From the NCBI GenBank assembly GCA_049324435.1, contig JBMOOQ010000008.1, positions 20,072 through 84,071 on the forward strand: 64,000 nucleotides of DNA, in the 5' to 3' direction. A model generated the notes under the pieces. That model searched no databases, was not told the origin of the DNA, and was given only the letters and a program-made list of their open reading frames with translations. Each line of letters opens with the position of its first letter. The stretch's first letter is position 1. Source of the stretch: Pseudomonadota bacterium (GTDB lineage Bacteria > Pseudomonadota > Alphaproteobacteria > Rhizobiales > Xanthobacteraceae). The position numbers and the translations under genes are program-made. Shown one piece after another: positions 15,145 through 43,384 of the stretch.

Positions 15145-15192
15145 ACCAAATGCCGGCGCTGCGGTGACGCCATGCGATTGAACGGAGAACCG

Positions 15193-25291: not shown

Positions 25292-25933
25292 TCAATGTTG
25301 ACCGATCGTCTCGGTCTCAAAACGCTCGACAAAATACAGGCCGATCCGGCGCGTCAGACTGGCCGCCACGACAGAGGAAACTGCAATCCCAACTGCCCCC
25401 GCGATTGGGGCCGCGAACGATAGCGTTGTCGCCGTCGCTGCCGCCAAGCCGGTCGGAGTCGCACCGCCCATCAGACCGATCACGATCGAACGCATCTTGT
25501 CGCGCTCGAACGGGATGCCGTAGAGATCGCTGAGGCCCTTGACCATTCGAAGAATGACCGCGGTGACACTGACGACGTTCACGGTCGGCATGGGCACGAG
25601 ACCGCCGAGCCCAGCATACATCTTGTGCCGGTCGACGATCCTGAATGCGAGTTGAAGACGCCGCTCCGCCTCTTCTTGGGTCATCGGGGGAAAAATTTCG
25701 AATTTGAGTGTCGCGTCGTCTGCATGAGAGTCACCGGCACTCATATCGTTGGCATTTGCAGGCGGCGGCGTGGGTGGCCACACCTCTGCTTCGACCTGGA
25801 CCGGCTCCTTTGGAGTGGTCGGCTTCGCCGTCACCGATTGCGGCATTGGCGCCTCGGTCCCTGCCTCACCAGGAACGAACCGCAGGCCGGACCCGGCAGG
25901 CTTGATCGCCTTCGGAAGCTGTTTGCGTGTCAT
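25292..25933 (-). CDS. DUF697-like membrane-associated protein (paralog of 34745..35326)
   Basis: Conserved core GLGGLVPMPTVNVVSVTAVILRMVKGLSDLYGIPF aligns with GVGGLIPVPIIDVATVAGIQLQMLRRLSQIYNVPF of the second copy; ATGA overlap with upstream ParA-like gene. Confidence 0.5.
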   Translation of the reverse strand: MTRKQLPKAIKPAGSGLRFVPGEAGTEAPMPQSVTAKPTTPKEPVQVEAEVWPPTPPPANANDMSAGDSHADDATLKFEIFPPMTQEEAERRLQLAFRIVDRHKMYAGLGGLVPMPTVNVVSVTAVILRMVKGLSDLYGIPFERDKMRSIVIGLMGGATPTGLAAATATTLSFAAPIAGAVGIAVSSVVAASLTRRIGLYFVERFETETIGQH

Positions 25934-26574
25934 GCTGCGGCCTGCTGTTGTCCGAGCACCATGTCGAGTTCATCGGCGATCGCAGCAATCTCGCGCGCCG
26001 CGGGCCCCTTCCAGCTGATCAGACTCGGCGTCGCGCCCCACAACGACGCCTCCGGATAGGCCACCCGGTTTTGCATCTCGTTCTGAAGCACCGGAATGCC
26101 AGCCTCGGTGAGCTCGGTCCGGATGTGCCGCGCGATGATCGAATCGCGGGTGGTCTGCGTCAGGAGGCAACGATAGAGCGGCCGCCGTCCGTCGGATCGC
26201 TCGGTGAGGAAACTGATGGTGTCCAGGGTCCGGTCCACGTCGAACGGCGACGGCTTGACCGGGACCAGGAGAAAATCCGACACCGCAAGGCATTCCAGCG
26301 TAGTCTTTGAGCGGAATCCCGGGGTGTCAATGATAACAAGTCCTCCGGCACCGGAGATGCGCCGGGCGGTCTTGGTGGCCTCCTCAGTGGCGTCTTCGAT
26401 GACGGCAACGCCCCCAAGGCTGCGCTCGCGAGCGGCCAACCCCATGATCGAACGCTGCGGATCGGCATCGATGATCGTCGGACGCCGGCCGCGGAGATGC
26501 CAGTAAACCGCGAGACAACTGGCGACCGTACTCTTGCCGCTACCACCCTTCATCGTGGCGATCGTAACGATCAT
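25930..26574 (-). CDS. ParA/MinD-family P-loop ATPase
   Basis: Start at ATG 26574 (MIVTIATMKGGSGKST deviant Walker A, RBS AAGGAGG); 214 aa. Confidence 0.75.
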   Translation of the reverse strand: MIVTIATMKGGSGKSTVASCLAVYWHLRGRRPTIIDADPQRSIMGLAARERSLGGVAVIEDATEEATKTARRISGAGGLVIIDTPGFRSKTTLECLAVSDFLLVPVKPSPFDVDRTLDTISFLTERSDGRRPLYRCLLTQTTRDSIIARHIRTELTEAGIPVLQNEMQNRVAYPEASLWGATPSLISWKGPAAREIAAIADELDMVLGQQQAAA

Positions 26575-26808
26575 CTCACGGCCTCCTTGCCAAAGACCCG
26601 CGCAGTGATTCGTTTGTATGGTAGCCAATTTTGGAAAGGCGCGCCTTAGATTGGAGGCGAGATCAGCGTAGATTTGTGTGCGCTTCCAAGCGCAGCGGAC
26701 CCCATTCTAGCCGCGTGGTCTTAGACGCTGATGAAATGTGTGATTGACTGGCCACCCAAATCGCACCGGCTTCTTTCGTAGAGCCAGCCCGTTGTGCCAA
26801 CCATGCTC

Positions 26809-26850
26809 AAAAAAATATGACGCTGTTTCCGAATGTCTTCGGAAACAGCG
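26809..26850 (-). terminator. Intrinsic terminator of the lanA precursor gene
   Basis: 13-bp perfect inverted repeat CGCTGTTTCCGAA-tgtc-TTCGGAAACAGCG (26821-26850) followed on the minus strand by TCATATTTTTTT (plus-strand A7 at 26809-26815). Confidence 0.6.
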
Positions 26851-26882
26851 TCAAATAGCCTGAAAAGCAAATTGTCCGGAGA

Positions 26883-27032
26883 TTACCAGGCCGGGCAAAC
26901 CGACAGGCCGGTGCAAGAGCCCAGCGTGTAGTTCGCGGAGGTCTCGGTTCCTGCGGCACTTTCCAGCACTTCGTCGGAAACGTCGAAGCTCAGGATCTCT
27001 TCTTCTTTTTGATTGAAGGTGGTGAGGGTCAT
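26883..27032 (-). CDS. lanA: Class II lanthipeptide precursor peptide (LanA), 49 aa
   Basis: Not in the ORF track (<60 aa). ATG 27032, RBS AAAGGAA, stop TAA 26883-26885; MTLTTFNQKEEEILSFDVSDEVLESAAGTETSANYTLGSCTGLSVCPAW; divergent from LanM; own terminator. Confidence 0.6.
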   Translation of the reverse strand: MTLTTFNQKEEEILSFDVSDEVLESAAGTETSANYTLGSCTGLSVCPAW

Positions 27033-27379
27033 GGCGTAATTCCTTTCATCCGCCAGATGCATAGAAAGTTACGAGGAAACTTGATGAATTTCCCCCTGCT
27101 GGCGGACGCAAGGATTGGCTAAATGCGGCGAAAAGTCAATCATTGCTGCCTTTGTCATCACAACGATCCGTTACTCAAAATCCTCATCCCGTGATCATGT
27201 CATTAACGCTTCGTGGCCTGCATTTATAGGCAGTGAATTTGCGGCGGCTGCACCGATTTAGGTTTATAGTCTTAAACTGACACTGAGAGCCCGGAAACGC
27301 GGTGCAAAATGGAAGCTGCCGGGTAACGATCCCGATTTCGTGCGGGAAAAACGTCGTCGGGCCCGCTAGGACTGCGTCA

Positions 27380-30300
27380 ATGGATACTCCTTTAGACCGC
27401 ATAGTGGCTCGCGCTGCGACCATCGACGAGCTTCTGGCCAAACCCGGCTCTGCAATGGGCTGCGATGCTGGCATTGCCGAACGGCGGCTGGCGGCGTGGT
27501 GCCGCTCGGCGGCCAATGGCGATTCGCAGCTATTCGCCAGGCGGCTCGCCCGTGACGGTTTGTCCCTTGAGAAGGCCCGCAACCGGCTGGCGGCTGCCTT
27601 CCCGAGTGCAGGTGGCCGCATGACCGGCTGGTCCGCAGACGCCGCCTGGGTCGAAGCGGGATTATACGGTGATTTCACAGAGCAAAGCTTTCCGGCGCTC
27701 AGCGCCGAACCCCGGCCCTTCCAGCACTTGCTTGGCCCGCTCGTCGCGGCGGCTGAGGCCAGACTCTGGCATGCAGCCGGTGAGGACTTGCGCAAGAACT
27801 TCACGGACCCTGGGCTCGAAAGCTTGCGCTTGATGCTGCTCGACCAGCTATCCGACCTATGCGCCCCGCCGCTGTATGAACGTTTTGCCGCGATGCGCGA
27901 GCGTGGCGAGGATTCACAGACTAGCGCCGCAGACCGGGCGCCTGGTACCGCCGCCTACAGCCGGTTCGTCGCGGACATGCGGTCGGGCGGTTTCCGCATA
28001 CTGTTCGATGAGAAGCCGGTACTGCTGCGTCTGATCGCAATCCTCGCACGGCAATGGATCGATTCGGTCTGCGAATTTGCAATTCGCCTGGACAAAGACC
28101 TCGCGGCCGTCCGTCGCGATCTTGCGGGATGCGATCGGTTGGAGCGCATTCTCAAGGTCGATGGCGGCCTGTCCGACCGTCATAACAATGGCCGGTCCGT
28201 CTTCATCGTTACGTTCGAGGACGGTGTCCGCGCGGTCTACAAGCCGAAGGATCTGCGTCTCGACGTGGCCTGGAACAAGCTGATCGCGCGCTTGAACGGA
28301 TCGAGTCCGCCGCTGGCCTTGCGGGCTGCCCGAACGATCGCTCGTGATCACTACGGATGGACCGAGTTCATCGACCACACCGGATGTGCCGACGAAAGCG
28401 GCTGCGACTTGTACTTCCGCAGAGCCGGAGCCTGGCTCGCGCTGTTTCACTGTTTTGCAGCGACCGACATGCACCAGGAGAATGTCATCGCCGCCGGCGA
28501 CCATCCGGTGCCGATCGATCTTGAGACCATTCTCCAGCCGACCCCGGCGCCGCCGAAGAATCAGGAACCGGAGAGCGAAGCCTTCGATGCCGCAACGCGC
28601 ATGATCGCGGATTCCGTCATGGCGGTCGGCGTGCTGCCGGCTTACGGCAGGGCTCCGGACACCTCGATTTTCGCCATGGGCGCCCTGACGGCCGACTGGA
28701 ATGCCAGAATCAGGCTTGAATGGCTCGACATCAACACCGACGGAATGCGTCCGACACGCGCCAAGGTGGTCGAAAATGCAAACCCGAATTTGCCGCATGC
28801 CGGCGGCCGCTACGCCCGCTTCGGCGAGCACGTAGACGCCTTTCTCGCCGGATTTGAAGACTACGCCCGGTTTCTGTCGCAGCTGTCGCGAGGAGACGGC
28901 CTGGGCGGATTGTTCGACGGATTTTCTGGCGTCACGGTCCGGAAGGTGGTCCGGCCGACGCGCTTTTACGCAATGCTGCTGCAGCGCCTGAAGACCCACC
29001 GCAGCATGGATGATGGCGCGGCGTGGTCGGCCCAGGCGGATTTTATCGCGCGCCTGTCGGACTGGGAGGCGCCGTCCGACCCCACCTGGGGGTTTCACCG
29101 GGCAGAGCGGTCCGCTCTCCTCGCCCTAAACGTTCCGCATTTCGTGGTCCCGAGCGATGGTCACGGGGTCCGAGATTGTGAAGGCCCGGTGGCCACACTG
29201 ACAGGGCTATCGGGGCTAGAGCGCGCGCGCGAGCGGGTCCGCCAATTCGATAAGGCCGAGATCGAATGGCAGCTCGCCGTCATCAAGGCCAACACGGCGG
29301 GAGCGCCGCCGAAAAGTTCAGCGGATGTCGCTCGATTGCTCCTGAGAACGGACGTCCCGATTGCAACGGACAGTTTCGCGTCTGAGGCTGACCGGATCGC
29401 GGCGGAAATATCCGAGCATGCCATCCGTCGCGGCCGGTCGGCGGCATGGATCGGTCTCGACTGGATGGGCGACGCCGAGGCGTTCCAGCTCGCGCCCTTG
29501 GGGCCCGATCTGTACAATGGCTTATCTGGGATTGCGGTTTTCCTGTCCGCGCATGCGTCGGTCACCGGGCACGGCGCCTCAGCGGAGCTTGCGCTCGCAG
29601 CGCTGACCCATTTGCGCAAAAAGCTGAAAGATCGAAACTCCGCACGCTTCGTCCGCTCGCTCGGGATTGGCGGCGCGACCGGGCTCGGATCGCTCATCTA
29701 TGCCCTTGCCGTGATCGCAAAGAATCTTGGGCAAGCTGACATCCTTTCCGATGCGCATGCGGCTTCGGCACTGATGATCGACGAGTTGATTGCGGCCGAC
29801 AAACGGCTCGACGCACTCGGCGGCAGCGCCGGCGCAATTCTGGCATTGCTGCGTCTCTACAGAGATACGCAGTCATCTGATGTGCTGGCCCGCGCGGTCG
29901 CTTGCGGCGAACATCTGCTCCGTCAGGAGAGGACCGGTATCGAGGGCATGCGCAGCTGGGTCGGTATTGGTCTTGGCGAAAAGCCCCTCAATGGCATGTC
30001 ACATGGCGCTGCCGGATTTGCCTATGCTCTTGCCTCGCTGGCGGAAGCGACCGGCCGCAACGACTTTCACCGCGCTGCTTCCGAGTGTCTTGCATTCGAG
30101 AATGCGACTTACAATGCCGATCGGCACAACTGGCCCGACTTGCGTCATAAAGGCGAGCCGGGCTGGGCCTGCCGCTGGTGCCATGGTGCGCCGGGAATCG
30201 GCCTCGCACGTGCCGCCCTGCTGAAACGGAGTGGCATCAATGCAGCGACGCTACAGTCGGACATCCGGAACGCGCTGGTTGGGGTCGAAGAGAACTGGCC

Positions 30301-30571
30301 GACGGAGATCGATACGCTATGTTGCGGCACGCTCGGCAGCGTCGAATTCATGTGCGAGGCCGGCGACGCACTCGGCCGACCGGACGTAAGGCGGATCGCA
30401 GCGCAACGGCTTGCGGCTGTGGTCGAGGCCGCACGCATCAACGGCGACTATCGCTGGAACAGCGGAAGGCGACGTTTCAATCTTGGACTATTCCGCGGAC
30501 TTGCGGGTGTGGGCTACACGCTGTTGCGGCAACGCGATAATGCATTGCCGAATGTGCTGATCTGGGAATAG
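27380..30571 (+). CDS. lanM: Class II lanthipeptide synthetase LanM (ProcM-like, CCG zinc-ligand type)
   Basis: 1063 aa from ATG 27380. C-terminal LanC-like motifs GMSHGAAGFAYALASL, WACRWCHGAPGIGLARAALL, LCCGTLGSVEFM. N-terminal ~600 aa of LanM-dehydratase size. GTG 27302 is an alternative start. Confidence 0.8.
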   Translation: MDTPLDRIVARAATIDELLAKPGSAMGCDAGIAERRLAAWCRSAANGDSQLFARRLARDGLSLEKARNRLAAAFPSAGGRMTGWSADAAWVEAGLYGDFTEQSFPALSAEPRPFQHLLGPLVAAAEARLWHAAGEDLRKNFTDPGLESLRLMLLDQLSDLCAPPLYERFAAMRERGEDSQTSAADRAPGTAAYSRFVADMRSGGFRILFDEKPVLLRLIAILARQWIDSVCEFAIRLDKDLAAVRRDLAGCDRLERILKVDGGLSDRHNNGRSVFIVTFEDGVRAVYKPKDLRLDVAWNKLIARLNGSSPPLALRAARTIARDHYGWTEFIDHTGCADESGCDLYFRRAGAWLALFHCFAATDMHQENVIAAGDHPVPIDLETILQPTPAPPKNQEPESEAFDAATRMIADSVMAVGVLPAYGRAPDTSIFAMGALTADWNARIRLEWLDINTDGMRPTRAKVVENANPNLPHAGGRYARFGEHVDAFLAGFEDYARFLSQLSRGDGLGGLFDGFSGVTVRKVVRPTRFYAMLLQRLKTHRSMDDGAAWSAQADFIARLSDWEAPSDPTWGFHRAERSALLALNVPHFVVPSDGHGVRDCEGPVATLTGLSGLERARERVRQFDKAEIEWQLAVIKANTAGAPPKSSADVARLLLRTDVPIATDSFASEADRIAAEISEHAIRRGRSAAWIGLDWMGDAEAFQLAPLGPDLYNGLSGIAVFLSAHASVTGHGASAELALAALTHLRKKLKDRNSARFVRSLGIGGATGLGSLIYALAVIAKNLGQADILSDAHAASALMIDELIAADKRLDALGGSAGAILALLRLYRDTQSSDVLARAVACGEHLLRQERTGIEGMRSWVGIGLGEKPLNGMSHGAAGFAYALASLAEATGRNDFHRAASECLAFENATYNADRHNWPDLRHKGEPGWACRWCHGAPGIGLARAALLKRSGINAATLQSDIRNALVGVEENWPTEIDTLCCGTLGSVEFMCEAGDALGRPDVRRIAAQRLAAVVEAARINGDYRWNSGRRRFNLGLFRGLAGVGYTLLRQRDNALPNVLIWE

Positions 30572-30588
30572 CGGCATAGGTGCCGACG

Positions 30589-31161
30589 CTATTTTCCGTC
30601 GGACGCGCAAGTGGCGTGGATCACCACCTTGAACATATCGAAGGACTGCACCGTGACCTGACAGAGCCGTGAGTCGCCAAGATCGACTTTGACAACGTCG
30701 CCGGCGTTCAGCAGATGCGGTTTACCTTCGATGTTGAGGGTCACACCGTGGATAGTCGGAACCCCTGTCAGCCCAACGTGAACGCGGCCGCCGGCGACAA
30801 TAAACGACTGGTTGGGCCTCATCACATAGATATTCTCGGACGGCACAATTTCGTCGAGCACGGCCTGGACGTGATTGAGCCGGGTTTGAAGCGTGAGGAT
30901 ACGATCCGCGCGCTGGTTAAGCTCAGCGCTGACCTGCTGGCGCTCCTCACGAAGTTGCTGGATCGTCGCATCGCGCTGCGCCAGTTGGCGTCTCGCCAAC
31001 TCGCGTCCTGTGATGTGACCGATCAATGCCACACCAAGGATCAACAAGGTCTCAATCAGAAGAATGTAAATCCGCCGGCGGCGCGTCAACAGGCGCCACG
31101 CGGCCCGCGAACTCAGGTCCGGCTCTGCGGTGCGACGACCGGATCGCAATTTGTCGGCCAC
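30589..31161 (-). CDS. Membrane-anchored coiled-coil protein with C-terminal beta-rich domain (possible SPFH partner / NfeD-like)
   Basis: One TM helix (IYILLIETLLILGVALIG), heptad-rich segment, beta-rich C-terminus VHVGLTGVPTIHGVTLNIEGKPHLLNAGDVVKVDLG; last gene of the ABC-SPFH operon. Confidence 0.4.
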   Translation of the reverse strand: MADKLRSGRRTAEPDLSSRAAWRLLTRRRRIYILLIETLLILGVALIGHITGRELARRQLAQRDATIQQLREERQQVSAELNQRADRILTLQTRLNHVQAVLDEIVPSENIYVMRPNQSFIVAGGRVHVGLTGVPTIHGVTLNIEGKPHLLNAGDVVKVDLGDSRLCQVTVQSFDMFKVVIHATCASDGK

Positions 31162-31270
31162 GTTAGCGGTCCTCCCACCCCTGCTTTTGCGCCACCGGGG
31201 CGTGCCTCGCAGTCATGCACAAAAGCCTTAGACAATGTCGGGTCATGGCGACGAGCATCCTGACTACTCG

Positions 31271-32731: not shown

Positions 32732-32754
32732 CAGTCGTTCCTCATCGAACGCCT

Positions 32755-34398
32755 TCAGCCGCCCACAGTACGTTCGTCAACGATGCGCCCTTCTTCAAAA
32801 TGAACACGACGCCCCCGCAACTTGGTTTCGTCGAGGTACCGGTCGTCATGGGTGATGACGACCAGCGTCTTGCCGGCGCGCATCAGTTCGGGGAGCAATT
32901 CATCATAGAACTTGCGCCGGTATTCCGGATCCTGCTCCGCCGTCCATTCGTCTAGCAGCATGATGGGTCTGTTTTCCAGCATGCTGACGATCAGCGCGAG
33001 CCGCCTGCGCTGGCCGCCCGAAAGGTCGAGGGTACGGAACTCGCCGTTGGTCAGGCCCGTCTTGTCCTCCAGCCGGAATTTGGCCAGCAGATTTGCCAGC
33101 TCGCCCGGATCGACGTCCGGAATGCCGTAGAGCCGCCGGAACAGATGATAGTCATAGAAAATAGCCGAAAATAGTTCGCGATACTCGTCGCGGGTCGCCT
33201 TGTTGACCCGCTTTCCGTTCAGCAGAACCTCGCCCTCCTGGGGGTGATAAAGACCCGCAAGCACGCGCAGAAAGGTCGATTTGCCGGAGCCATTGCCGCC
33301 GGTGATGAACACGAGCTCGCCGGAACGCAGAGTGAAGTCGATTGGGCCGATATGGAACGCCACGTCGGAATGGCGGTCGACATAGCTGAAAACGATCTGG
33401 CGCATTTCGATCGATTCGAAGCTCTTCGGCGTTGCGACCTCGTCTGTCTCCGACGACACGGACTCGCGCAGCTTCGTTTCGAGGATTTGAATCCGGTCCG
33501 CAGCCGCATTGGCGTTCATCAGAATGGGAATCGACTGCACGAGTGCGAAGCATGCACCGATGACGTAGAGCAGTGCCGCGGTGATCTTGGCGATTGACGC
33601 GCCGCCAAGGCTTTCACTGAATTGCGGAGCAACGAACACCACCGTGCCGAGCAGGATATACATATAGCCTTGCGAATAGGCGATTTGCTTGAAGGTTTCC
33701 GACTGGCTTCTGATTTTGATGTTGGCCGCGGTGCGCGACACATCGACGGCATCGTCAAACAAGGCATCGCTGCGGCTCCGGTTGAGCCTGACCTCTTTGA
33801 AGCCATCGAGAAAATCGGTGATGCGATCGAACAGACGGCGCTCGTGCTCGGCGGCCCGCATTCGCTCCTCAACCAGCTTGCGGCTCCGGAAGTGAAAGAT
33901 CAGACCCGCCATGCTGACGATGAGAACGCTCAGCAGAAAGGCCGCGAGCGACAAATAGGCCACGTAGATCGCCACGAACCCGATCAGGACCGGTCCCTGA
34001 ATCGAGAAGCTGAGCATGTTGCTCGCCTGCGTCAAGATCGCGGCATCGCTCGAAATCGCGGCGATGATGCGCGCGCGGCCGACCTCTTCGATCGACAAAA
34101 GCTCCGAGCGGCGGACATAGTCCATCATTCGCACGCGAAGCTTGTGAATGATGGCCTCGATTTCCGACGTAATCGTCGTCGAGACGTAAACCTGGGTCTT
34201 GAAAAACAGGAACAGCGACACCACGAACAGGGTGGCCGACCAAAGCGCAGCGCCGCGTTCGTCCGAATCCGCCGCGGCCGCGCCGGTGTTGATCGCCGTA
34301 AGAATAAGGGCGTTGCTGATCCCCCCCAGAGCAGACATGAACACCAGCTTCCGCACCGAAGCGTGCATCTCGCGGTGAACAAGCTGGAGGAAGGACAT
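32755..34398 (-). CDS. Fused permease-ATPase ABC exporter of the cyclic-peptide/YojI-McjD type
   Basis: 547 aa; 6-TM N-terminal half, C-terminal NBD with Walker A GGNGSGKST, signature LSGGQRRRL, Walker B MLLDEWTAEQD; no N-terminal C39 peptidase domain. Confidence 0.8.
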   Translation of the reverse strand: MSFLQLVHREMHASVRKLVFMSALGGISNALILTAINTGAAAADSDERGAALWSATLFVVSLFLFFKTQVYVSTTITSEIEAIIHKLRVRMMDYVRRSELLSIEEVGRARIIAAISSDAAILTQASNMLSFSIQGPVLIGFVAIYVAYLSLAAFLLSVLIVSMAGLIFHFRSRKLVEERMRAAEHERRLFDRITDFLDGFKEVRLNRSRSDALFDDAVDVSRTAANIKIRSQSETFKQIAYSQGYMYILLGTVVFVAPQFSESLGGASIAKITAALLYVIGACFALVQSIPILMNANAAADRIQILETKLRESVSSETDEVATPKSFESIEMRQIVFSYVDRHSDVAFHIGPIDFTLRSGELVFITGGNGSGKSTFLRVLAGLYHPQEGEVLLNGKRVNKATRDEYRELFSAIFYDYHLFRRLYGIPDVDPGELANLLAKFRLEDKTGLTNGEFRTLDLSGGQRRRLALIVSMLENRPIMLLDEWTAEQDPEYRRKFYDELLPELMRAGKTLVVITHDDRYLDETKLRGRRVHFEEGRIVDERTVGG

Positions 34399-34495
34399 TG
34401 GAACGCTGCTGCCGGCTACTGTTGCAAGGGGCGCTGCCGTCCCCCAAAGAAAGGCATGGGCCGGTCTCGATACTCAACGATCAGGACCGGCAGGA

Positions 34496-34696
34496 TCAGG
34501 ACCGGCGACGCCATTCCACGTTTCGCGACGGGCCAGTGATAAGCAGCAAGGGCAGCACCACCAGAGGTGTTGTCAACAGCGCAAGCCCGAAGGTTCCGAG
34601 GAATCCCATACGGCGCCCGATGCCGCACAAACCGGTCAACGCGCAAAAGACGATGTATAGCCCTGCCTCGATCATCGGTTTCACTGGAGCAGCCAT
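34496..34696 (-). CDS. Possible small hydrophobic membrane peptide
   Basis: 66-aa ORF between the ABC exporter and DUF697 genes, weak RBS AAAGG, two hydrophobic stretches; may be spurious. Confidence 0.2.
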   Translation of the reverse strand: MAAPVKPMIEAGLYIVFCALTGLCGIGRRMGFLGTFGLALLTTPLVVLPLLLITGPSRNVEWRRRS

Positions 34697-34744
34697 CGAC
34701 CTTTCGATCGTGACTGCCCTCCGGATTGCTACTGACCGTGAAGG

Positions 34745-35326
34745 TCAAGAGTTGGTGCGCGGAGCGGTGGTGGCGTCCGGCGCAGACACCTTGGCGCGCG
34801 AACGATTGTCCCACTTTTCCTTCTGCGCCTTTATGAACTCGCGATAGTCGGGCGGGTTGAAGTCGAGCAAAGTGCCGCCCGATTCGAAGTGCTGGATGAA
34901 CGCCTTACCAATCGCAAAGGTTGCACCCGCTGCGAGCGCAGGCATCACGAAGCCCGAAGCAATCGTCCCGAGCACAGGCACCGACTTCAGCATGCTGGCC
35001 GCGCCGATGCCGCTGGTCGCAGGGATCATCGTCCCGGCCAGGGCTGCGATCAGCGCCTTGCCGCTGTTTTCGGAGAACGGCACGTTATAAATTTGCGACA
35101 GGCGGCGCAGCATCTGGAGCTGAATACCGGCAACGGTGGCGACGTCGATGATCGGGACCGGGATGAGCCCGCCGACGCCGCTCCACAATGCGAAACGATC
35201 AACCAGCTTGTTGGCCATCTCGAGCCGCGCGGCTGGGGTCAATTCCTGAGTTTCGGGCGTCTCGGACTTGGTCTCCGCCTCTGATGTCGTCTTTTGTGCC
35301 ATCCTGGAACCCTTCTCGGCATGCAT
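34745..35326 (-). CDS. DUF697-like membrane-associated protein (second paralog)
   Basis: See 25292..25933; shared GxGGLxPxPxxDVxxVxxxQLxMxxxLSxxYxxPF core. Confidence 0.5.
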   Translation of the reverse strand: MHAEKGSRMAQKTTSEAETKSETPETQELTPAARLEMANKLVDRFALWSGVGGLIPVPIIDVATVAGIQLQMLRRLSQIYNVPFSENSGKALIAALAGTMIPATSGIGAASMLKSVPVLGTIASGFVMPALAAGATFAIGKAFIQHFESGGTLLDFNPPDYREFIKAQKEKWDNRSRAKVSAPDATTAPRTNS

Positions 35327-35535
35327 GGATCGACCGCCATCTGATCGAGCGATCTAGATGTCTGTTCGCCGCAATCAAATCTGGTTTGAAAACGCTATCA
35401 TGATGGGTTGCGACTGCCAAGCGTCCGCAAGCGCCGTTATATGCTTGCAATATAAGGACTTATCATTCCGGCTTGGCGATCTTGCCTCGGTCGGACCGAT
35501 AGCCATAATGGCATGGCGGGCACGCGGAGACAGGT

Positions 35536-35754
35536 ATGGGGTCGAGACTTCAGAAGGACGTCCCGGTTAGAGCGCGCCGCGCATGGGAGGCGCCTGCCAT
35601 TTCAGAAGTCTCTATCGCAGGCGCGACGAAAGCCGCGGCTCTGGAAGAGCGTCCCGGCGAGGACCGAAATCCCCCGCCGCCCGCGACTCCGGGGGCCAAG
35701 CTCGGTTTCTCGTTCGAAATGTCGTTCCCGTTATCGGTCCGCACCGATAGCTGA
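35536..35754 (+). CDS. Lasso peptide precursor (A); predicted core GAKLGFSFEMSFPLSVRTDS
   Basis: RBS GGAGA-5nt-ATG; leader ends ...PPPATP (Thr at -2), core Gly1 and Glu9; directly upstream of B1-B2-C on the same strand. Confidence 0.6.
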   Translation: MGSRLQKDVPVRARRAWEAPAISEVSIAGATKAAALEERPGEDRNPPPPATPGAKLGFSFEMSFPLSVRTDS

Positions 35755-35837
35755 CCCGGCGCCTCGGTCTCTCGGCCATCCGCCGATGGCGAAGGATACC
35801 CTGATCCGCTAGGCTCGCTTCGCCTTTCCGGACACGC

Positions 35838-36152
35838 GTGCGGGACCCATCAATCGTGAGTGTGACAATCGACAGCGTGCTGGTTCGCGATCAGTACCTT
35901 GCCGCGACCGATCTGGGCGGTCAGATCGTCGTCCTCAATGTCCACACCGATACCTATGTCAGCCTCAACGCCGTGGCGAGCGACATCTGGACCATGCTTT
36001 CCGAACCGCGCCGCGTGGGCGATATTCTCGAGTTCCTATTGCAAAGGCATGATGTCGATGGCGAAACTCTGTCGCGCGACGTGCTGCCCTTCCTGCAAAC
36101 TATGATCGAGCGGCGGCTGGTGCGGCAGGTGGAAGGAGCTTGCGGGCGATGA
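35838..36152 (+). CDS. PqqD-family RiPP recognition element protein (lasso B1)
   Basis: ~100 aa; PqqD-like pattern LNAVASDIWTML...GDILEFLLQRHDVDGETLSRDVLPFLQTMIERRLV; start codon uncertain (GTG 35838 or internal GTG 35856/35862). Confidence 0.7.
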   Translation: MRDPSIVSVTIDSVLVRDQYLAATDLGGQIVVLNVHTDTYVSLNAVASDIWTMLSEPRRVGDILEFLLQRHDVDGETLSRDVLPFLQTMIERRLVRQVEGACGR

Positions 36153-36556
36153 CGCCTCGGACGAGGCGACGGATATATCTGCGGGAAGCCGCGATCGTGC
36201 TCATGCTGGCACGTCTTGCCGTGCGCATATTGCCGTCAGCGCGCTTGTTGCGCTGGGCCGATCGCCCGATGAAAAAGCTCTGCCGCTTCCCTGGAGATGA
36301 CGTGGCCTGGACCGCCTGGGCGATCGAACATGCGGCGAAACGCCAGGGCGCGGCACTGCAATGTCTGCCGCGCGCCCTTGCTGCGCATGTCATGCTTCGC
36401 CGGCGCGGTATCGCAAGCAGGATTTGCCTGGGCGTTGCGCGACATCGCGACCATCTGATCGCGCATGCATGGATTGAAGTTGGCTCACGAAAGCTGGTCG
36501 GCGGAGACGATTCCGAACGCTTCACGCCTTTGGCCGCCTTTGGCGGCGCCAAATGA
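36149..36556 (+). CDS. Lasso peptide leader protease (B2, transglutaminase-like Cys protease)
   Basis: ATG 36149 overlaps B1 stop (ATGA), RBS GGAAGGAG; Cys/His/Asp context QCLPRALAAHVMLRRRGIASRICLGVARHRDHLIAHAWIEVG. Confidence 0.7.
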   Translation: MTPRTRRRIYLREAAIVLMLARLAVRILPSARLLRWADRPMKKLCRFPGDDVAWTAWAIEHAAKRQGAALQCLPRALAAHVMLRRRGIASRICLGVARHRDHLIAHAWIEVGSRKLVGGDDSERFTPLAAFGGAK

Positions 36557-36574
36557 TTCGAATCAAAAGACCTC

Positions 36575-38512
36575 ATGAGCGCCATCGCCGGCATCCTGCG
36601 TTTCGATGACCAGCCGGTCAGCCGGCGCGAACTGGAACGCGCCGCCGCCGCGCTGCGCGCCTTCGGGCCGGATCGATCGGATGTCGCCGTAAGCGGTCCT
36701 GCGGGATTTGCTCACGCGCTGATGCGCATGACGCCGGAGGACCGTGACGACCGCCAGCCCTTCCATGGCGCTGGCGGATCGATGATCACCGCCGACCTTC
36801 GCCTCGATAATCGCGACGACATCATTGCCTGCCTTGGCCTCTCGGCCAGGGACACATCGTCCTTGCCGGACTCCCGGGTGGTACTCAAGGCCTGGGAAAC
36901 ATTCGGCGACCGCCTGTGGCCGATGCTGCGGGGCCCGTTTGCAATTGCGATCTGGGACGCGAACCGCCGCACGCTGACCCTGGCGCGCGATCAACTGGGC
37001 CTGAATGTCATCATGTGGCACCGGAGCCGGCGCTTCTTCGCGTTTGCAACCATGCCCAACGGATTGTTCGCGCTGAATGAGGTGCCCCGCCGATTGAGCG
37101 AGGAAAAGTTTGCGGACTTTCTCGTGCTCAATCATGCCGAGCACGCGACCACTATCTACAAGGACACTTTCCGCGTGCCGCCGGCGCATGTGATGAAAGT
37201 CGATGCGCATGGCAATATCACGCAGTCCCGTTACTGGTCCCCCCAGGACACGCCGCGCGTCAGATTACGGACAGATCAGGATTATGCCGACGGATTGCGC
37301 GAGCGCCTCAATCGCGCCGTCAGACGCCAGATGCGCAGTGCTTATCCGATCGGATGTCTGCTCAGCGGCGGTCTCGACTCCTCGTCGGTCGCCGCCCTCG
37401 CAGCGAGCGCGCTCGCCGAGACCGGTCAGCGTCTCGCGGCTTTCACCGGTGTACCAGGGCCGGACTTCGATGGCGCTGTTCCAGAGGGACACTATGCCGA
37501 CGAAACACCCTATGTCGATGCTATCGCAAGAACGATCGGCAATATCGACGTCACCTATGTCCATAACGATACAACCGACGATCTCGCGCAACTCGACCGG
37601 TTTTTTGTTGCGCTCGAAGGCCCGGTGCGCAATCCGACCAACCTCGGCTGGGTTCTGGCGATCCTGCGTCGCGCGCATGGCGCGAATAGACGCGTCCTGC
37701 TCGGCGGATTGCGCGGCAATTATACGATAAGCTGGACCGGCTGGTCTCAGGCCTTCGATCACCTGATGCACGGCCGCTGCATCACTGCGTTCCGTCAGTG
37801 GCATCTGTATTATCGCCGTACCCCGTATTCACGCTGGAATGCGGTGCACAAACTGTTCATCGAGCCGGCCCTCTCCCGATGGCGCTGCTCGTGGGCGGAT
37901 CGCCGTCACCATCCGCAACGCGTCGCTCCATGGCAGATGCATTCACCGATCCGGCCTGACTTTGCGGCAGCCATGGAAGTGGAGGTGCGCGCGCGGCAAT
38001 CTGGGCACGATTTTCATTATCGCGCGCACCGCGACGAACGCATCCAGGGGCTCCTTCAGGCCGACTATGCCGGCGACTGGCATGCTGCCGAAAAGGCGGT
38101 AACCGGAGTCGAGATTCGCGACCCCACGGCCGACATCGACGTCGTCTCCTATTGTCTCGGGATACCCCCCGAACAGTTTCTTGCCGAAGGCACTGACCGC
38201 TCGCTGATCCGGCGAGCGATGTGGGGTATCCTGCCTGAATGCGTGGTGACGAACCGCCTCCACGGCCTGCAGGATGCGGAATGGTATCGACGGATTGAAG
38301 GCCGCCGCGACGAGATTGCCCGTGAGATCAAGGCCCTAGCGCAGTCTCCGTTGGCACAGCGAGCGATCGATATTCCCCGGCTCGAGCGCGCCCTGTCGCA
38401 TTGGCCAAGCGATGGCTGGAATCGCGCCGAGACATTTACAGAGTACAATCTGATGCTGATGCGCGGCTTAGCTGGCGGCCGCTTCCTGCGATGGTTCGAA
38501 TCGGTGAACTGA
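36575..38512 (+). CDS. Lasso peptide cyclase (C, asparagine synthetase B homolog)
   Basis: 645 aa; N-terminal Ntn-like domain without Cys2 (MSAIAGIL), PP-loop LSGGLDSSSVAA, AsnB-like C-terminal domain. Confidence 0.8.
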   Translation: MSAIAGILRFDDQPVSRRELERAAAALRAFGPDRSDVAVSGPAGFAHALMRMTPEDRDDRQPFHGAGGSMITADLRLDNRDDIIACLGLSARDTSSLPDSRVVLKAWETFGDRLWPMLRGPFAIAIWDANRRTLTLARDQLGLNVIMWHRSRRFFAFATMPNGLFALNEVPRRLSEEKFADFLVLNHAEHATTIYKDTFRVPPAHVMKVDAHGNITQSRYWSPQDTPRVRLRTDQDYADGLRERLNRAVRRQMRSAYPIGCLLSGGLDSSSVAALAASALAETGQRLAAFTGVPGPDFDGAVPEGHYADETPYVDAIARTIGNIDVTYVHNDTTDDLAQLDRFFVALEGPVRNPTNLGWVLAILRRAHGANRRVLLGGLRGNYTISWTGWSQAFDHLMHGRCITAFRQWHLYYRRTPYSRWNAVHKLFIEPALSRWRCSWADRRHHPQRVAPWQMHSPIRPDFAAAMEVEVRARQSGHDFHYRAHRDERIQGLLQADYAGDWHAAEKAVTGVEIRDPTADIDVVSYCLGIPPEQFLAEGTDRSLIRRAMWGILPECVVTNRLHGLQDAEWYRRIEGRRDEIAREIKALAQSPLAQRAIDIPRLERALSHWPSDGWNRAETFTEYNLMLMRGLAGGRFLRWFESVN

Positions 38513-38592
38513 GAGCACATTACCATCGTAATGCATCGGTGCCGGAGTCCGAGACAGCGGTCGGTCGCGAAATGGCCTAGCAGGATGCGCCC

Positions 38593-39763
38593 GTGAAGAT
38601 CGAGCCCGATACCGAAAACTTCTACGACCGGGTACCTGTCTTCCGCGGCTTCCCGAGCGTTGTGGACGAGACACTGTATCATCCGCTGCCGCAGGATTGG
38701 GTCATTGGAGCCACAGATGTCGTGGGCTCGACACGAGCAATCCTTGAGAACCGCTACAAGGCGGTGAACATGGCCGGTGCCGCGGGCATTGCCGCCGTGG
38801 CTAATGTGCTGGGCCGCGAATTTCCGTTCGTATTCGGCGGCGACGGCGCGAGCTTCGCGGTCCCACCGTCAGGCATAGATCTGGCGCGCGACGCAATAGC
38901 GGCAACGCTGCGCTGGACGGCGGAAGAATTGGCTCTGGAGCTGCGCGGCGCCATGGTGCCGGTGCGGGAGATCAGGGCCCATGGCCTGGATGTCCGGGTC
39001 GCGCGCTTCGCGCCGTCGGACGATGTGACCTACGCGATGTTCTCCGGCGGCGGACTCGCATGGGCCGAAACCGCAATGAAACAGGGGCATTTCGCGGTAT
39101 CTCCAGCGCCGCCCGGCGCACGTCCCGATCTGACCGGCCTCTCGTGCCGCTTCGAGGAAATGCCTTCGCTGCACGGGCTCGTTCTGGCGATCTTGGTCGT
39201 CCCAGGCGATCGCGCCGATCCGCGCGCATTCCGCCGGGAAGTGCAGGAACTCGTGCTGCTTGCCGAGCGGAAAGGCCATGCCCCTGTCCCAGCAAATGGC
39301 CCGGACTTCCGCTGGCCGCCTCAGGGCATCGATCTCGAGGCGCGCGCGTCCTCCCGCGGCGACGTGCCGCTGCTGCTTCGGCGCGGCGCTGTTCAGGACA
39401 GCGCTCTATTATCTCATTTTCCGGTTCCGCGTGCGCGTCGGACCGTTTATCCCCGCAGTCTATCTGAAGCAGGTCGTGGCGAATTCCGACCACCGCAAAT
39501 TCGATGACGCATTGCGCATGATCATTGACTGCAACTCTGACCTGGCGGAGGAGATTGAACAAAAGCTCAAAGCAGCTGCACGGAAAGGAATTTTGCGCTT
39601 TGGCCTTCATCGTGAACGGGCCGCAATGATGACTTGCTTCACGCCATTTCCGGCGCATTCAGATCACATGCATTTCATCGATGGCGCGGCCGGCGGATAT
39701 GCGCTTGCCGCAGCCGCGCTGAAAACCGGCGCAGCGGGCACATCCAAGACAGGCACGACCTGA
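38593..39763 (+). pseudogene. DUF3095-like protein (tentative family call) with apparent +/-1 frameshift near 39385-39400
   Basis: Frame 1 reads YKAVNMAGAAGIAAVANVLGREFPFVFGGDGASFAVPP to 39507 with a junk-like tail. Frame 2 continues protein-like from ~39390 (YLKQVVANSDHRKFDDALRMIIDCNSDLAEEIEQKLKAAARKGILRFGLHRE...HMHFIDGAAGGY) to stop 39761-39763. Combined ~390 aa. Confidence 0.4.
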
Positions 39764-42457: not shown

Positions 42458-42976
42458 CTATTTTGACAGTGTCTGTGCCAGGCGCCTAAACGACTGCAAC
42501 TGATCCGGTTTCAATTCCCGGTTTGCGTCGCGACCGACGAAGATCTTGAACATAATCGTCCCGTCACGATTGAAAAACAGAATGGACGCCGAATGGCGTC
42601 CCATGAATGGGCGCTCGACGAAGGCGATCTCGGCGCAGCGCTCATGGCGGATGTGGCCGTGGAAGCCGGTCGTACCGGGTATGTTATAATAGCCGCGCGA
42701 GACCTGGCCGGCCGGGATCGGACCGCCAAATTCCATGATTCCGTCATCGGTATGCACGATGAGAGTCACGTCGCCCCACCGGGCGACTTCGTTCATCACC
42801 TCGACAAAATGCGCTCCACCGGCGAAGGTCCGGAAGGCCGCAGGCAGAGCATGAACCACCTCCCTGGGGGTGACGCCGGCTTCCTGAGCGAAGTGCTCGA
42901 CAATCACATCCGGATGCTTGGCGAGATGATCGGCAAGCATCGTCACAGATGGGGCGCTCATGTTCCGGCTAGCCAT
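42458..42976 (-). CDS. ChuX/HutX-like haem utilisation protein
   Basis: ~170 aa, haem-carrier ChuX-like pattern; start uncertain (ATG 42976, 42961 or 42997); the most upstream start would overlap hmuQ. Confidence 0.65.
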   Translation of the reverse strand: MASRNMSAPSVTMLADHLAKHPDVIVEHFAQEAGVTPREVVHALPAAFRTFAGGAHFVEVMNEVARWGDVTLIVHTDDGIMEFGGPIPAGQVSRGYYNIPGTTGFHGHIRHERCAEIAFVERPFMGRHSASILFFNRDGTIMFKIFVGRDANRELKPDQLQSFRRLAQTLSK

Positions 42977-42981
42977 CCATC

Positions 42982-43317: not shown

Positions 43318-43384
43318 CGTTTCCTCTCCTTTGTGGCAACCAAGGATCCGCCGCGGGACGCGGCGGTCCCCGTCCGTCGCGTCG

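What the first reader, a model, noticed from the sequence alone, without database searches (positions are those of the whole stretch)
25292..39763. Two different RiPP classes (lanthipeptide and lasso peptide) side by side in a ~14-kb accessory island bracketed by DUF697 paralogs
The lanthipeptide locus (26.8-30.6 kb) and the lasso locus (35.5-38.5 kb) are separated only by an ABC-exporter/SPFH/coiled-coil operon. The block is bracketed by two paralogous DUF697-like genes (25292..25933 and 34745..35326). The surrounding 64 kb is otherwise core-like metabolism. Promoter regions inside the block (26.6-27.4 kb, 35.3-35.5 kb) are AT-richer than the flanks. I saw no integrase, transposase or tRNA at the edges, so the acquisition route is unclear. 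The single exporter could serve both peptides.
Basis: inference. Interest (0 to 1): 0.6.

Follow-up and report, generated by a model that had tools for sequence, protein, structure and literature searches.

The report
Conserved lanthipeptide-plus-lasso peptide gene cluster
A soil bacterium carries the genes for two different ring-shaped peptides next to one membrane export machine; related bacteria inherit the package as a unit, so it is not a recently acquired island.

Summary
There is a class II lanthipeptide pair (lanA/lanM), a lasso operon (lasA-B1-B2-C), a minus-strand membrane operon between them, and two DUF697 genes.

The "accessory island" reading fails:
- Composition matches the flanks, and there are no mobility genes, tRNAs or flanking repeats.
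- The block sits collinearly between the same neighbours in relatives at about 71-89% nucleotide identity (nearest named relatives: Pseudorhodoplanes).
- The variable genes are at its edges (aldehyde dehydrogenase, M20 peptidase).

An SPFH-anchored metagenome scan gave these counts:
- 30/30 assessable loci carry LanM plus the coiled-coil gene.
- 29/29 carry DUF697b.
- 18/29 carry the lasso genes.
- One clade keeps a scar of the last ~98 LasC codons, so the lasso operon was lost repeatedly, not added.

The membrane operon also holds an unannotated, conserved 66-aa two-helix protein. The same set (DUF697, micro-protein, "cyclic peptide export" ABC transporter, prohibitin-type SPFH) flanks NRPS genes in Tistrella, Skermanella and Azospirillum. 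I read it as a shared export/accessory module.

Still open:
- lanA shows almost no synonymous change.
- LasA has a canonical leader motif 20-30 residues away from its conserved core.
- No LanA leader protease is present.

No products were tested.

The parts
25292..25933 (-). DUF697a: DUF697/YcjF-family membrane protein, translationally coupled to the ParA-like gene (ATGA overlap at 25930-25933).
   Evidence: Pfam PF05128, E 1.9e-11. It lies immediately downstream of ParA wherever ParA was found in the related loci. It is 32% identical to DUF697b.
25930..26574 (-). Orphan ParA/MinD-family ATPase (214 aa, deviant Walker A KGGSGKST). It is one of the best-conserved proteins of the block.
   Evidence: Pfam AAA_31/CbiA. 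NF041546 scores 140 bits, below its cut-off of 180. It is 90-98% identical in close relatives and 66-85% in distant ones.
26815..26856 (-). Intrinsic terminator hairpin directly after lanA (16-bp stem plus a T-run).
   Evidence: Inverted repeat I16, 19-nt arms, 95% complementary. Found by the terminator scan. Conserved in relatives.
26883..27032 (-). lanA, class II lanthipeptide precursor (49 aa). Leader: MTLTTFNQKEEEILSFDVSDEVLESAAG. Core: TETSANYTLGSCTGLSVCPAW. Two thioether rings are predicted, Thr36-Cys40 and Thr41(or Ser44)-Cys46.
   Evidence: ORF with a Shine-Dalgarno sequence. Homologues lie next to LanM in about 35 loci. T36, C40 and C46 are invariant. NCBI annotates it as a hypothetical protein.
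27033..27157 (-). lanA promoter and 5'UTR block, highly conserved at the nucleotide level.
   Evidence: Column conservation is 0.87-0.98 from about -125 to the ATG, against 0.35-0.6 further out. A predicted stem sequesters the SD. There is no covariation support.
27380..30571 (+). lanM, class II lanthipeptide synthetase (1063 aa as called; an alternative GTG start lies at 27302).
   Evidence: DUF4135 E 1.7e-95, LANC_like E 5.3e-55. TIGR03897 scores 739.7 bits. The cyclase motifs SHG, WCHG and CCG are readable in the translation.
30589..31161 (-). Last gene of the membrane operon. It encodes an N-terminal TM helix, a long helix of about 50 residues beyond the membrane, and an 8-strand beta-sandwich with two invariant Cys (C167, C185). 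The soluble part is probably periplasmic. No Pfam family.
31271..32731 (-). Prohibitin-type SPFH protein: N-terminal TM, SPFH domain, a Pfam-unassigned stretch (about residues 265-330), then a Pro/Ala-rich tail of about 150 aa.
   Evidence: PF01145, E 1.3e-25. The closest solved relatives are prohibitins. Hydropathy. 3773 database relatives at E <= 1e-20.
32755..34398 (-). ABC exporter (fused TMD-NBD, 547 aa) of the 'cyclic peptide export' family (SyrD/PvdE/YojI type). It has no C39 peptidase domain.
   Evidence: TIGR01194 scores 343.3 bits against a cut-off of 286.2; PRK10522 (YojI) scores 339.8, below its cut-off. Solved ABCB-type exporters are the best PDB matches.
34496..34696 (-). Unannotated gene for a 66-aa two-TM micro-protein between DUF697b and the ABC gene (the start may be at Met8).
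   Evidence: ORF. tblastn finds it at the same position in about 50 related loci at 50-94% identity. It also occurs in the NRPS-linked modules of Skermanella, Azospirillum and Tistrella. Gene callers call it as 59-62 aa in L167-L171. No Pfam match.
34745..35302 (-). DUF697b: first gene of the five-gene membrane operon, divergent from lasA.
   Evidence: PF05128, E 8.4e-16. Present in 29/29 assessable loci. It is the DUF697 paralog closer to those of the NRPS-linked modules (38-47% identity).
35536..35754 (+). lasA, atypical lasso precursor (72 aa). It has an N-terminal recognition-like motif (W17, P20, I27, T31), a variable Pro-rich spacer, an invariant P52, and a predicted core GAKLGFSFEMSFPLSVRTDS with a Gly53-Glu61 macrolactam.
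   Evidence: ORF with an SD. 22-sequence alignment with invariants W17, P20, T31, P46, P52, K55, G57, F58, E61 and P65. The core is conserved with normal synonymous divergence. NCBI does not annotate it.
35856..36152 (+). Lasso B1 (PqqD-like RRE).
   Evidence: PF05402, E 1.3e-16. Gene call in L001.
36149..36556 (+). Lasso B2 (transglutaminase-like leader peptidase).
   Evidence: PF13471, E 1.7e-21.
36575..38512 (+). Lasso C (asparagine-synthetase-like macrolactam cyclase).
   Evidence: PF00733, GATase_7. NF033535 lasso cyclase scores 340 bits, below its cut-off of 525.
38593..39763 (+). DUF3095 gene, frameshifted near 39385-39390 in this strain. It is intact (368-392 aa) and follows lasC in close relatives.
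   Evidence: Two Pfam halves lie in different frames. Relatives are intact. The indel was located by alignment, and the same sequence is present in an independent Logan assembly.

Best explanation
Window 25.3-39.8 kb is one conserved, vertically inherited composite peptide-natural-product locus. It is not two chance neighbours on an acquired island.

Its invariant core has two parts:
- lanA plus lanM, encoding a small two-ring class II lanthipeptide.
- A five-gene membrane operon: DUF697b, a 66-aa two-TM micro-protein, a TIGR01194 'cyclic peptide export' ABC transporter, a prohibitin-type SPFH protein, and a TM/coiled-coil/beta-sandwich protein.

A ParA-like ATPase/DUF697a gene pair usually accompanies this core.

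The lasso operon (lasA-B1-B2-C, often followed by DUF3095) shares a divergent promoter region with the membrane operon. It is an ancestral part of the locus that several lineages have since deleted.

Proposed mechanism:
- LanM dehydrates and cyclises LanA. B1, B2 and C mature LasA into a lasso of about 20 residues with a 9-residue ring.
- Both peptides leave the cytoplasm through the single ABC exporter.
- The SPFH protein and the coiled-coil protein are both predicted N-in/C-out. With DUF697b and the micro-protein they form an accessory assembly around the exporter, which scaffolds it and/or protects the producer's membrane.

Shown: gene identities, precursor conservation, co-occurrence, synteny, lasso-loss scars, and reuse of the module next to NRPS genes.

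Inferred: the shared exporter, the role and topology of the accessory proteins, the ring positions, and any bioactivity.
For: Gene identities.

Co-occurrence in loci anchored on the SPFH gene (57-95% identity):
- LanM and the coiled-coil gene in 30/30 assessable loci.
- DUF697b in 29/29.
- Lasso C in 18/29.
- Of 20 loci assessable on both sides, 11 have both RiPPs, 9 have LanM only and none has lasso only.

Loci anchored on LasA show the same full layout. So does a 546-kb contig.

Collinearity: window 21.3-42.4 kb aligns with relatives at 71-89% nucleotide identity, and indels occur only at the edges (AldDH, M20).

Composition is flat, with no tRNA or repeats.

Co-divergence: identity to the window is rank-correlated between LanM and LasC (rho 0.92, n=12), SPFH and LasC (0.73), and ABC and LanM (0.60).

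Lasso loss:
- Lasso-less loci fall in three separate clades of the ABC+SPFH tree.
- One clade keeps only LasC residues 548-645 next to DUF697b. The remnant is intact in some loci and broken by frameshifts in L107 and L126.

Module reuse: DUF697, the micro-protein, the TIGR01194 ABC and the prohibitin gene occur together next to NRPS genes.
- Tistrella has the same gene order as the window. In Skermanella and Azospirillum the order is rearranged.
- An ABC-prohibitin pair beside an NRPS/PKS cluster is reported in Thalassobaculum (PMC12016528).

Precursors are under selection. The LanA core has invariant T36, C40 and C46. The LasA C-terminal 17 residues are conserved with normal synonymous turnover.

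Operon structure: the five membrane genes lie on the same strand with gaps of 23-109 bp.
Against: - There is no experimental evidence for either product, for export, or for any protein-protein contact.
- All relatives were found through genes of the block, so genomes of the same clade that lack it could not be detected. A GTDB scan anchored on the flanking M20 gene gave no syntenic relatives.
- The ABC transporter lacks the C39 peptidase domain that class II lanthipeptide exporters usually carry, and no LanA leader protease is present.
- LasA does not fit the canonical lasso precursor rule. Its invariant Thr31 lies 20-30 residues upstream of the conserved core, and position -2 of my predicted cleavage site varies (T/S/A/E).
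- The SPFH and coiled-coil topology rests only on the positive-inside rule and on invariant cysteines.
Confidence: 0.7

Rival explanations
1. One reading: the segment is a recently acquired accessory island carrying two independent RiPP clusters, delimited by duplicated DUF697 genes.
For: Secondary-metabolite clusters are often horizontally mobile. The family occurs in lineages of varied GC (0.52-0.65) and in at least some different contexts. Flanks beyond the amidohydrolase differ between relatives, with heme uptake genes in some and Mnh antiporter genes in others. My sampling cannot see genomes that lack the block.
Against: The block shows no compositional difference from the flanks. It has no integrase, transposase, tRNA or bounding repeats. 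It occupies the same position with the same neighbours in every long contig of relatives that I retrieved. The DUF697 genes are only 32% identical and each belongs to its own conserved operon. The indel-prone genes are outside the block.
Confidence: 0.1
2. The membrane operon and the ParA/DUF697a pair form a housekeeping membrane-organisation system that has nothing to do with the peptides. The RiPP genes merely sit beside it.
For: SPFH proteins, ParA-like ATPases and DUF697/YcjF proteins occur widely outside biosynthetic clusters. No direct link to the peptides has been shown.
Against: LanM co-occurs with this SPFH subfamily in 30/30 assessable loci. The ABC belongs to the cyclic-peptide export family. 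More distant versions of the same DUF697/micro-protein/ABC/prohibitin set sit next to NRPS genes in three other genera, and an ABC-prohibitin pair sits beside an NRPS/PKS cluster in a fourth. Chance adjacency would not give this pattern.
Confidence: 0.08
3. The accessory proteins are a self-protection or sensing device rather than part of the export route, and the lanthipeptide is a conserved physiological peptide (a signal or surface-active morphogen, as SapB is in Streptomyces) rather than an antibiotic.
For: The LanA core is identical across lineages whose LanM is only 65-83% identical, and even synonymous sites are frozen. Antibiotic RiPP cores usually diversify. SPFH and PspA-type modules are linked to membrane-stress responses in other bacteria (the pspA-ydjGHI preprint listed). 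Cyclic-nucleotide signalling genes recur next to the locus.
Against: Nothing distinguishes protection from export scaffolding in sequence data. The same module beside NRPS clusters of unknown products fits either reading. Conserved cores also occur in narrow-spectrum bacteriocins.
Confidence: 0.3
4. LasA is cut at the canonical site after Thr31-Lys32, giving a core of about 40 residues. The product is then not the 20-residue lasso I predict but a larger or differently linked macrolactam, or needs a second trimming step.
For: W17, P20, I27/G28 and T31 are invariant or nearly so, and their spacing differs by only one or two residues from the known lasso leader motif (Y-17, P-14, L-12, G-8, T-2). 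Position -2 of the alternative site is not conserved.
Against: After residue 32 there is no conserved acidic residue at positions 7-9. It is absent in the window and in most homologues. The spacer varies in length by more than 15 residues. The only invariant acceptor, E61, lies exactly 9 residues after the invariant P52.
Confidence: 0.3

Closest known systems
Microcin J25 system (mcjABCD) and the E. coli YojI exporter
   Same: It has a lasso maturation pair (protease plus Asn-synthetase-like cyclase) and a dedicated half-size ABC exporter that also gives immunity. The window's ABC matches the YojI model over its full length (PRK10522, 339.8 bits).
   Different: B is split into B1 and B2. The precursor has a leader of about 52 residues with a spacer. 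The exporter is not in the lasso operon; it lies in a five-gene operon with SPFH, DUF697 and two further proteins, and it persists where the lasso genes are lost. The YojI score is below that model's cut-off.
Class II lanthipeptide clusters (LanM with a double-Gly-type leader, e.g. the lacticin 481 or prochlorosin types)
   Same: It has a single bifunctional LanM, a short precursor with an acidic leader ending in a small-residue pair (AAG), and a Ser/Thr/Cys core.
   Different: There is no LanT with a C39 peptidase, no LanP and no LanFEG immunity genes. lanA is divergent and monocistronic with its own terminator. The precursor is nearly frozen in sequence. The precursor matches no Pfam or NCBIfam model.
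SPFH cages with partner proteins (HflK/C-FtsH, prohibitin-m-AAA protease, QmcA-YbbJ/NfeD)
   Same: It is an N-terminally anchored SPFH protein encoded in an operon with the membrane machine it could enclose, alongside a single-pass partner. Prohibitins are the nearest solved relatives.
   Different: The candidate client is an ABC exporter, not a protease. The partner has no NfeD domain or OB fold. The SPFH protein carries a Pro/Ala-rich tail of about 150 residues. No assembly has been shown.
NRPS clusters with TIGR01194 exporters (SyrD, PvdE type)
   Same: They use the same exporter family. In Tistrella, Skermanella and Azospirillum they also have the same DUF697, micro-protein and prohibitin companions, and Thalassobaculum has the ABC-prohibitin pair.
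   Different: There the cargo is non-ribosomal. The coiled-coil/beta-sandwich protein and the ParA/DUF697a pair were not found in those loci.
SapB/ram cluster of Streptomyces
   Same: It is a lanthipeptide with a conserved sequence and a physiological rather than antibiotic role, encoded next to ABC transporter genes.
   Different: SapB is made by a class III-type enzyme (RamC) in Actinobacteria. No similarity was tested here. This is a functional analogy recalled from knowledge, not a result.

Membership tests
Class II lanthipeptide biosynthetic cluster | LanM with an N-terminal dehydratase (DUF4135) and a C-terminal LanC-like cyclase | tested here: met
   PF13575 E 1.7e-95 and PF05147 E 5.3e-55. 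TIGR03897 scores 739.7 bits against a cut-off of 304.
Class II lanthipeptide biosynthetic cluster | An adjacent precursor with a leader and a Ser/Thr- and Cys-containing core | tested here: met
   The 49-aa lanA is divergent from lanM. Core T36, C40 and C46 are invariant in 20 homologues.
Class II lanthipeptide biosynthetic cluster | A LanT-type exporter with an N-terminal C39 leader peptidase | tested here: not met
   The only exporter is 547 aa, with TMD and NBD and no peptidase domain. None of the proteins scanned in the block has a C39 or LanP-type domain.
Class II lanthipeptide biosynthetic cluster | A thioether-bridged product | not testable with these tools
   This needs mass spectrometry or NMR of the expressed peptide.
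Lasso peptide biosynthetic cluster | An RRE (B1/PqqD), a leader peptidase (B2, transglutaminase-like) and a macrolactam cyclase (C, Asn-synthetase-like) | tested here: met
   PF05402 E 1.3e-16, PF13471 E 1.7e-21, PF00733 E 1.2e-31. NF033535 scores 340 bits, below its cut-off of 525.
Lasso peptide biosynthetic cluster | A precursor with Thr at -2, a small residue at core position 1 and Asp/Glu at position 7-9 | tested here: inconclusive
   A small residue follows the invariant P52 in 21 of 22 homologues, and E61 lies exactly 9 residues later. But position -2 varies, and the invariant Thr31 of the leader-like motif lies 20-30 residues upstream.
Lasso peptide biosynthetic cluster | A dedicated ABC exporter (D) | tested here: met
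   A TIGR01194 exporter is divergently transcribed from lasA. It is not lasso-specific, because it persists in 9 lasso-less loci.
Horizontally acquired genomic island | Composition that differs from the flanks | tested here: not met
   GC is 0.612 against 0.621 and 0.609. Tetranucleotide distances are 9.0-11.9, against a window mean of 10.9 +/- 1.5. GC3 is 0.66-0.77, like the neighbours.
Horizontally acquired genomic island | Integrase, transposase, a tRNA target or direct repeats at the borders | tested here: not met
   No tRNA. Only short, chance-level repeats. All coding space is assigned.
Horizontally acquired genomic island | Presence/absence polymorphism among close relatives | tested here: inconclusive
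   The block is present and collinear in every long contig of relatives that I retrieved. But all of them were found through block genes, and the flank-anchored GTDB scan was uninformative.
SPFH-NfeD operon | An SPFH protein paired with an NfeD-domain (OB-fold) partner | tested here: not met
   The SPFH protein is present (PF01145). The partner has no NfeD or other Pfam hit. Its predicted beta-sandwich has no OB-fold match.
ParABS partition system | A ParA ATPase with a ParB partner and a centromere | tested here: not met
   The deviant Walker A is present, but NF041546 scores 140 bits, below its cut-off of 180. The downstream partner is a DUF697 membrane protein, not ParB. A parS site was not searched for.
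Known anti-phage defence systems (PADLOC) | A match of the accessory proteins to defence-system models | tested here: not met
   Only generic ATPase hits for the ABC, and a weak DUF697-like hit to candidate PDC-S29.

The most novel reading that the evidence does not exclude
The set DUF697, two-TM micro-protein, TIGR01194 ABC and prohibitin-type SPFH is a previously unrecognised peptide export/self-protection machine. Alphaproteobacteria plug it into ribosomal (lanthipeptide, lasso) and non-ribosomal peptide pathways alike, with an SPFH cage on the outer face of the inner membrane enclosing the exporter. In the Pseudorhodoplanes-type version it handles two co-evolving RiPPs of different classes that act together. 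The lanthipeptide gene would also be constrained at the RNA level.
Probability: 0.3. Interest if true: 0.75.

Novelty: new variant of a known kind. Interest (0 to 1): 0.6.

Why it matters
Genome-mining tools usually report a lanthipeptide region and a lasso region side by side as a coincidental "hybrid" region. Here the pairing is conserved across hundreds of environmental sequences, the two enzymes co-diverge, and deletion scars mark where the lasso genes were lost. That argues for a functional partnership, or at least a shared infrastructure.

The locus also gives a first recurring genomic context to three poorly understood components:
- DUF697/YcjF proteins.
- A new 66-aa membrane micro-protein.
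- A Pfam-less coiled-coil/beta-sandwich protein.

It further links a prohibitin-type SPFH scaffold to natural-product export in both RiPP and NRPS pathways. If SPFH cages can organise exporters as they organise AAA proteases, that would widen the known roles of this universal protein family.

Both precursors are atypical (a frozen lanA, and a lasso precursor with a long spacer). Standard precursor-finding rules would miss them or score them poorly.

Tried and rejected
1. Genome-collection scan with the flanking M20 peptidase, meant to find island-free relatives. The best hit was 62% identical with no synteny.
2. My first table suggested the aldehyde dehydrogenase was only 55-67% identical in relatives. 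That was an artefact of an out-of-frame query. blastn shows 82-85% nucleotide identity where the gene is present.
4. A structured RNA element in the lanA 5'UTR. The fold z-score is -4.2, but Rfam finds nothing. The alignment of distant loci supports only a 5-bp hairpin, with no compensatory changes.
5. A shared operator between the lanA-lanM and DUF697b-lasA intergenic regions. Only about 2 near-matches of 11 nt were found, roughly the chance expectation.
6. Anti-phage defence as an alternative identity: no meaningful PADLOC hits.
7. DUF3095 as a nucleotidyl-cyclase relative, a motif resemblance I recalled. There is no PDB sequence match, so this remains untested.
8. Organism names for the 57-62% identity group: the cluster look-up returned none.
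9. Literature searches for this gene combination or for DUF697 function found nothing relevant. The one exception was an incidental mention of an ABC-prohibitin pair beside an NRPS/PKS cluster.

Full report
**What is in the sequence**

Minus strand, left side:
- An aldehyde dehydrogenase.
- DUF697a (25292-25933).
- A ParA/MinD-type ATPase (25930-26574). Its stop overlaps the DUF697a start.
- A 49-aa ORF (26883-27032), followed by a strong hairpin terminator.

Plus strand:
- lanM (27380-30571). TIGR03897 scores 739.7 bits.

Minus strand, convergent with lanM:
- DUF697b (34745-35302).
- An ABC transporter (32755-34398). It passes the curated cut-off of TIGR01194, 'cyclic peptide export ABC transporter'.
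- An SPFH/Band_7 protein (31271-32731).
- A 190-aa coiled-coil protein (30589-31161).

Plus strand, divergent from DUF697b:
- A 72-aa ORF (35536-35754).
- PqqD-like B1, transglutaminase-like B2 and the Asn-synthetase-like cyclase C.
- A DUF3095 gene split over two frames.
- An M20 peptidase.

There is no tRNA in the window. Repeats around the block are short and at chance level. The two DUF697 proteins are only 32% identical.

**Composition and source**

- The block's GC (0.612) equals that of the flanks (0.621 and 0.609).
- Its tetranucleotide profile lies inside the spread of the window.
- Its genes have the same GC3 as their neighbours.

Exact look-ups show that the window comes from an NCBI MAG labelled 'Pseudomonadota bacterium'. 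The nearest named relatives are Pseudorhodoplanes sp., Hyphomicrobiales. One coiled-coil-protein homologue comes from a MAG labelled Xanthobacteraceae. NCBI annotates neither the lasso precursor nor the small membrane protein described below.

**Comparative genomics, the decisive result**

A metagenome scan anchored on the SPFH protein found 369 relatives, and I analysed the best 80 loci.

- Every locus with at least 5 kb beyond the SPFH gene has LanM and the coiled-coil gene (30/30).
- Every locus with at least 5 kb beyond the ABC gene has DUF697b (29/29), and 18 of these 29 have the lasso cyclase.
- Of 20 loci assessable on both sides, 11 have both RiPP systems, 9 have LanM only, and none has lasso only or neither.

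Look-ups anchored on LasA homologues return the same full layout. So does a 546-kb contig.

Whole-locus alignment shows window 21.3-42.4 kb collinear with relatives at 71-89% nucleotide identity. Indels occur only at the edges: the aldehyde dehydrogenase is missing in L085 and L087, and M20 is missing in L083 and L166.

The block is therefore the stable element and its borders are the variable part. That is the opposite of an island.

One caveat applies. All these relatives were found through block genes, so relatives without the block would have been invisible. A flank-anchored scan of the genome collection gave nothing usable.

**The lasso operon is ancestral and repeatedly lost**

On a tree of ABC+SPFH, the lasso-less loci fall in three separate clades. 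In those loci, unrelated genes follow DUF697b: a two-component system, an adenylate cyclase, and a cNMP-binding protein.

One clade (L107, L119, L122, L123, L125, L126, L136) retains only the last ~98 codons of lasC (residues 548-645) next to DUF697b. The remnant is in the original orientation and is broken by frameshifts in L107 and L126. That is a deletion scar.

Identity to the window is rank-correlated across loci between LanM and LasC (rho 0.92, n=12) and between SPFH and LasC (rho 0.73). This fits co-inheritance of the two pathways.

**The membrane operon is a reusable module**

Between DUF697b and the ABC gene lies an unannotated ORF (34496-34696). It encodes a 66-aa protein with two hydrophobic helices. 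It is conserved at that position in about 50 loci at 50-94% identity, and gene callers pick it up in several relatives. It matches no Pfam family.

A tblastn search of plasmid and chromid records with the SPFH protein found more distant versions (31-44% identity). In these records, DUF697, the micro-protein, a TIGR01194 ABC and a prohibitin-family gene occur together beside NRPS genes:
- Tistrella mobilis pTM3 has the same gene order as the window.
- Two Skermanella plasmids and an Azospirillum chromid have the same genes in a rearranged order.

The set is thus tied to peptide natural-product clusters whatever the biosynthetic class. I take this as the strongest argument that it serves export and/or producer protection.

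The coiled-coil protein and the ParA/DUF697a pair were not found in the NRPS-linked versions.

**The accessory proteins**

SPFH protein:
- It has basic residues before a single N-terminal TM segment, then an SPFH domain and a Pro/Ala-rich tail of about 150 residues.
- Its nearest solved relatives are prohibitins.

Coiled-coil protein:
- It has a basic N-terminus, one TM helix, a long helix and an eight-strand beta-sandwich. Two cysteines are invariant.
- AlphaFold2 gives mean pLDDT 86.7.

By the positive-inside rule, both soluble parts face the periplasm. This is inference.

None of the accessory proteins matches a known defence system.

**The precursors**

LanA homologues share the leader motif EEEIL-x-F-x-VSDEALE-x-AAG. 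The core has invariant Thr36, Cys40 and Cys46 and a near-invariant Ser/Thr41. This predicts two thioether rings.

LasA homologues have four parts:
- Invariant W17, P20 and T31, in a motif that resembles the canonical lasso leader.
- A Pro-rich spacer of variable length and sequence.
- Invariant P52.
- A strongly conserved C-terminal segment, x-x-K-L-G-F-S-F-E-M-S-F-P-L-S-A-R-T-E.

After residue 32, most homologues have no acidic residue at positions 7-9. By contrast, E61 is always nine residues after P52. I therefore predict cleavage after P52 and a Gly53-Glu61 ring in a 20-residue lasso (about 60% confident). The canonical site after K32 is the rival.

The core codons of lasA show normal synonymous divergence (27-47% of identical-residue codons), so selection acts on the peptide.

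**An unexplained feature of lanA**

In close relatives, only 4-9% of identical-residue codons in lanA differ synonymously, and 20% do in the more distant L092. In every neighbouring gene of the same genome pairs the figure is 27-57%. Binomial P is 2e-9 to 3e-4.

The conserved nucleotide block extends from about 125 nt upstream of the ATG to the terminator. The transcript is predicted to be unusually stable (z = -4.2). However, Rfam has no match, and distant loci give no compensatory changes.

Either RNA-level constraint or recent recombination of the lanA cassette could explain this.

**Gaps in the model**

- There is no C39 peptidase domain or LanP-type protease for the LanA leader.
- Nothing shows that the two peptides act together.
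- No product was observed.

The literature library returned no description of this gene combination or of DUF697 function.

**Verdict**

The island interpretation is not supported. The exporter-sharing idea is supported by comparative evidence.

The locus is best described as a new, widely conserved variant of RiPP clusters. It couples a lanthipeptide, and ancestrally a lasso peptide, to an SPFH/DUF697/micro-protein/ABC module that NRPS clusters also use.

Noticed in passing
window 38593-39763: The DUF3095 gene after lasC is frameshifted near 39385-39390, by a small indel inside a hairpin-forming stretch. It is intact (368-392 aa) in relatives. The same sequence occurs in an independent Logan assembly, so this is probably a real pseudogene and not an assembly error.
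   Followed up: yes
window 26815-27157 (minus strand): The whole lanA transcription unit (promoter, 5'UTR, CDS and terminator) is 92-98% identical at the nucleotide level between genomes whose neighbouring genes are 67-90% identical. Synonymous change is almost absent.
   Followed up: partly
L125 4098-5966; L101 5076-5978; window 38593-39763: Cyclic-nucleotide-related genes sit next to DUF697b in lasso-less loci: an adenylate/guanylate cyclase in L125 and a cNMP-binding protein in L101. DUF3095, which follows lasC, has a motif that reminded me of nucleotidyl cyclases. There is no PDB sequence match, so that link is untested.
   Followed up: partly
window 42458-48978: A heme-uptake cluster follows the amidohydrolase: ChuX/HutX, an ABM monooxygenase, a TonB-dependent receptor, a periplasmic binding protein, a FecCD permease and an ATPase. 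L083 shares at least its first genes, but L167, L168 and L170 have Mnh antiporter genes there. This segment, not the RiPP block, looks like the variable region.
   Followed up: partly
window 6289-8088 (minus strand): A 599-aa protein with an N-terminal caspase-like Peptidase_C14 domain (E 1.7e-38) and about 320 further residues with no Pfam match.
   Followed up: no
window 13771-15288 (-), 49011-50567 (-), 58602-59639 (+): Three long ORFs (505, 518 and 345 aa) with coding-like GC3 have no Pfam match at E <= 1e-5.
   Followed up: no
window 51527-56203 and 60943-63009: A formate-dehydrogenase-like molybdopterin oxidoreductase (990 aa) with a cytochrome b561 subunit, and a 688-aa protein with multiple 4Fe-4S domains. 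This is ordinary respiratory metabolism.
   Followed up: no
L120 4478-6614: In one lasso-less relative, a PAS histidine kinase and a LuxR-type response regulator lie directly beside DUF697b. They may be a lineage-specific regulator of the cluster.
   Followed up: no
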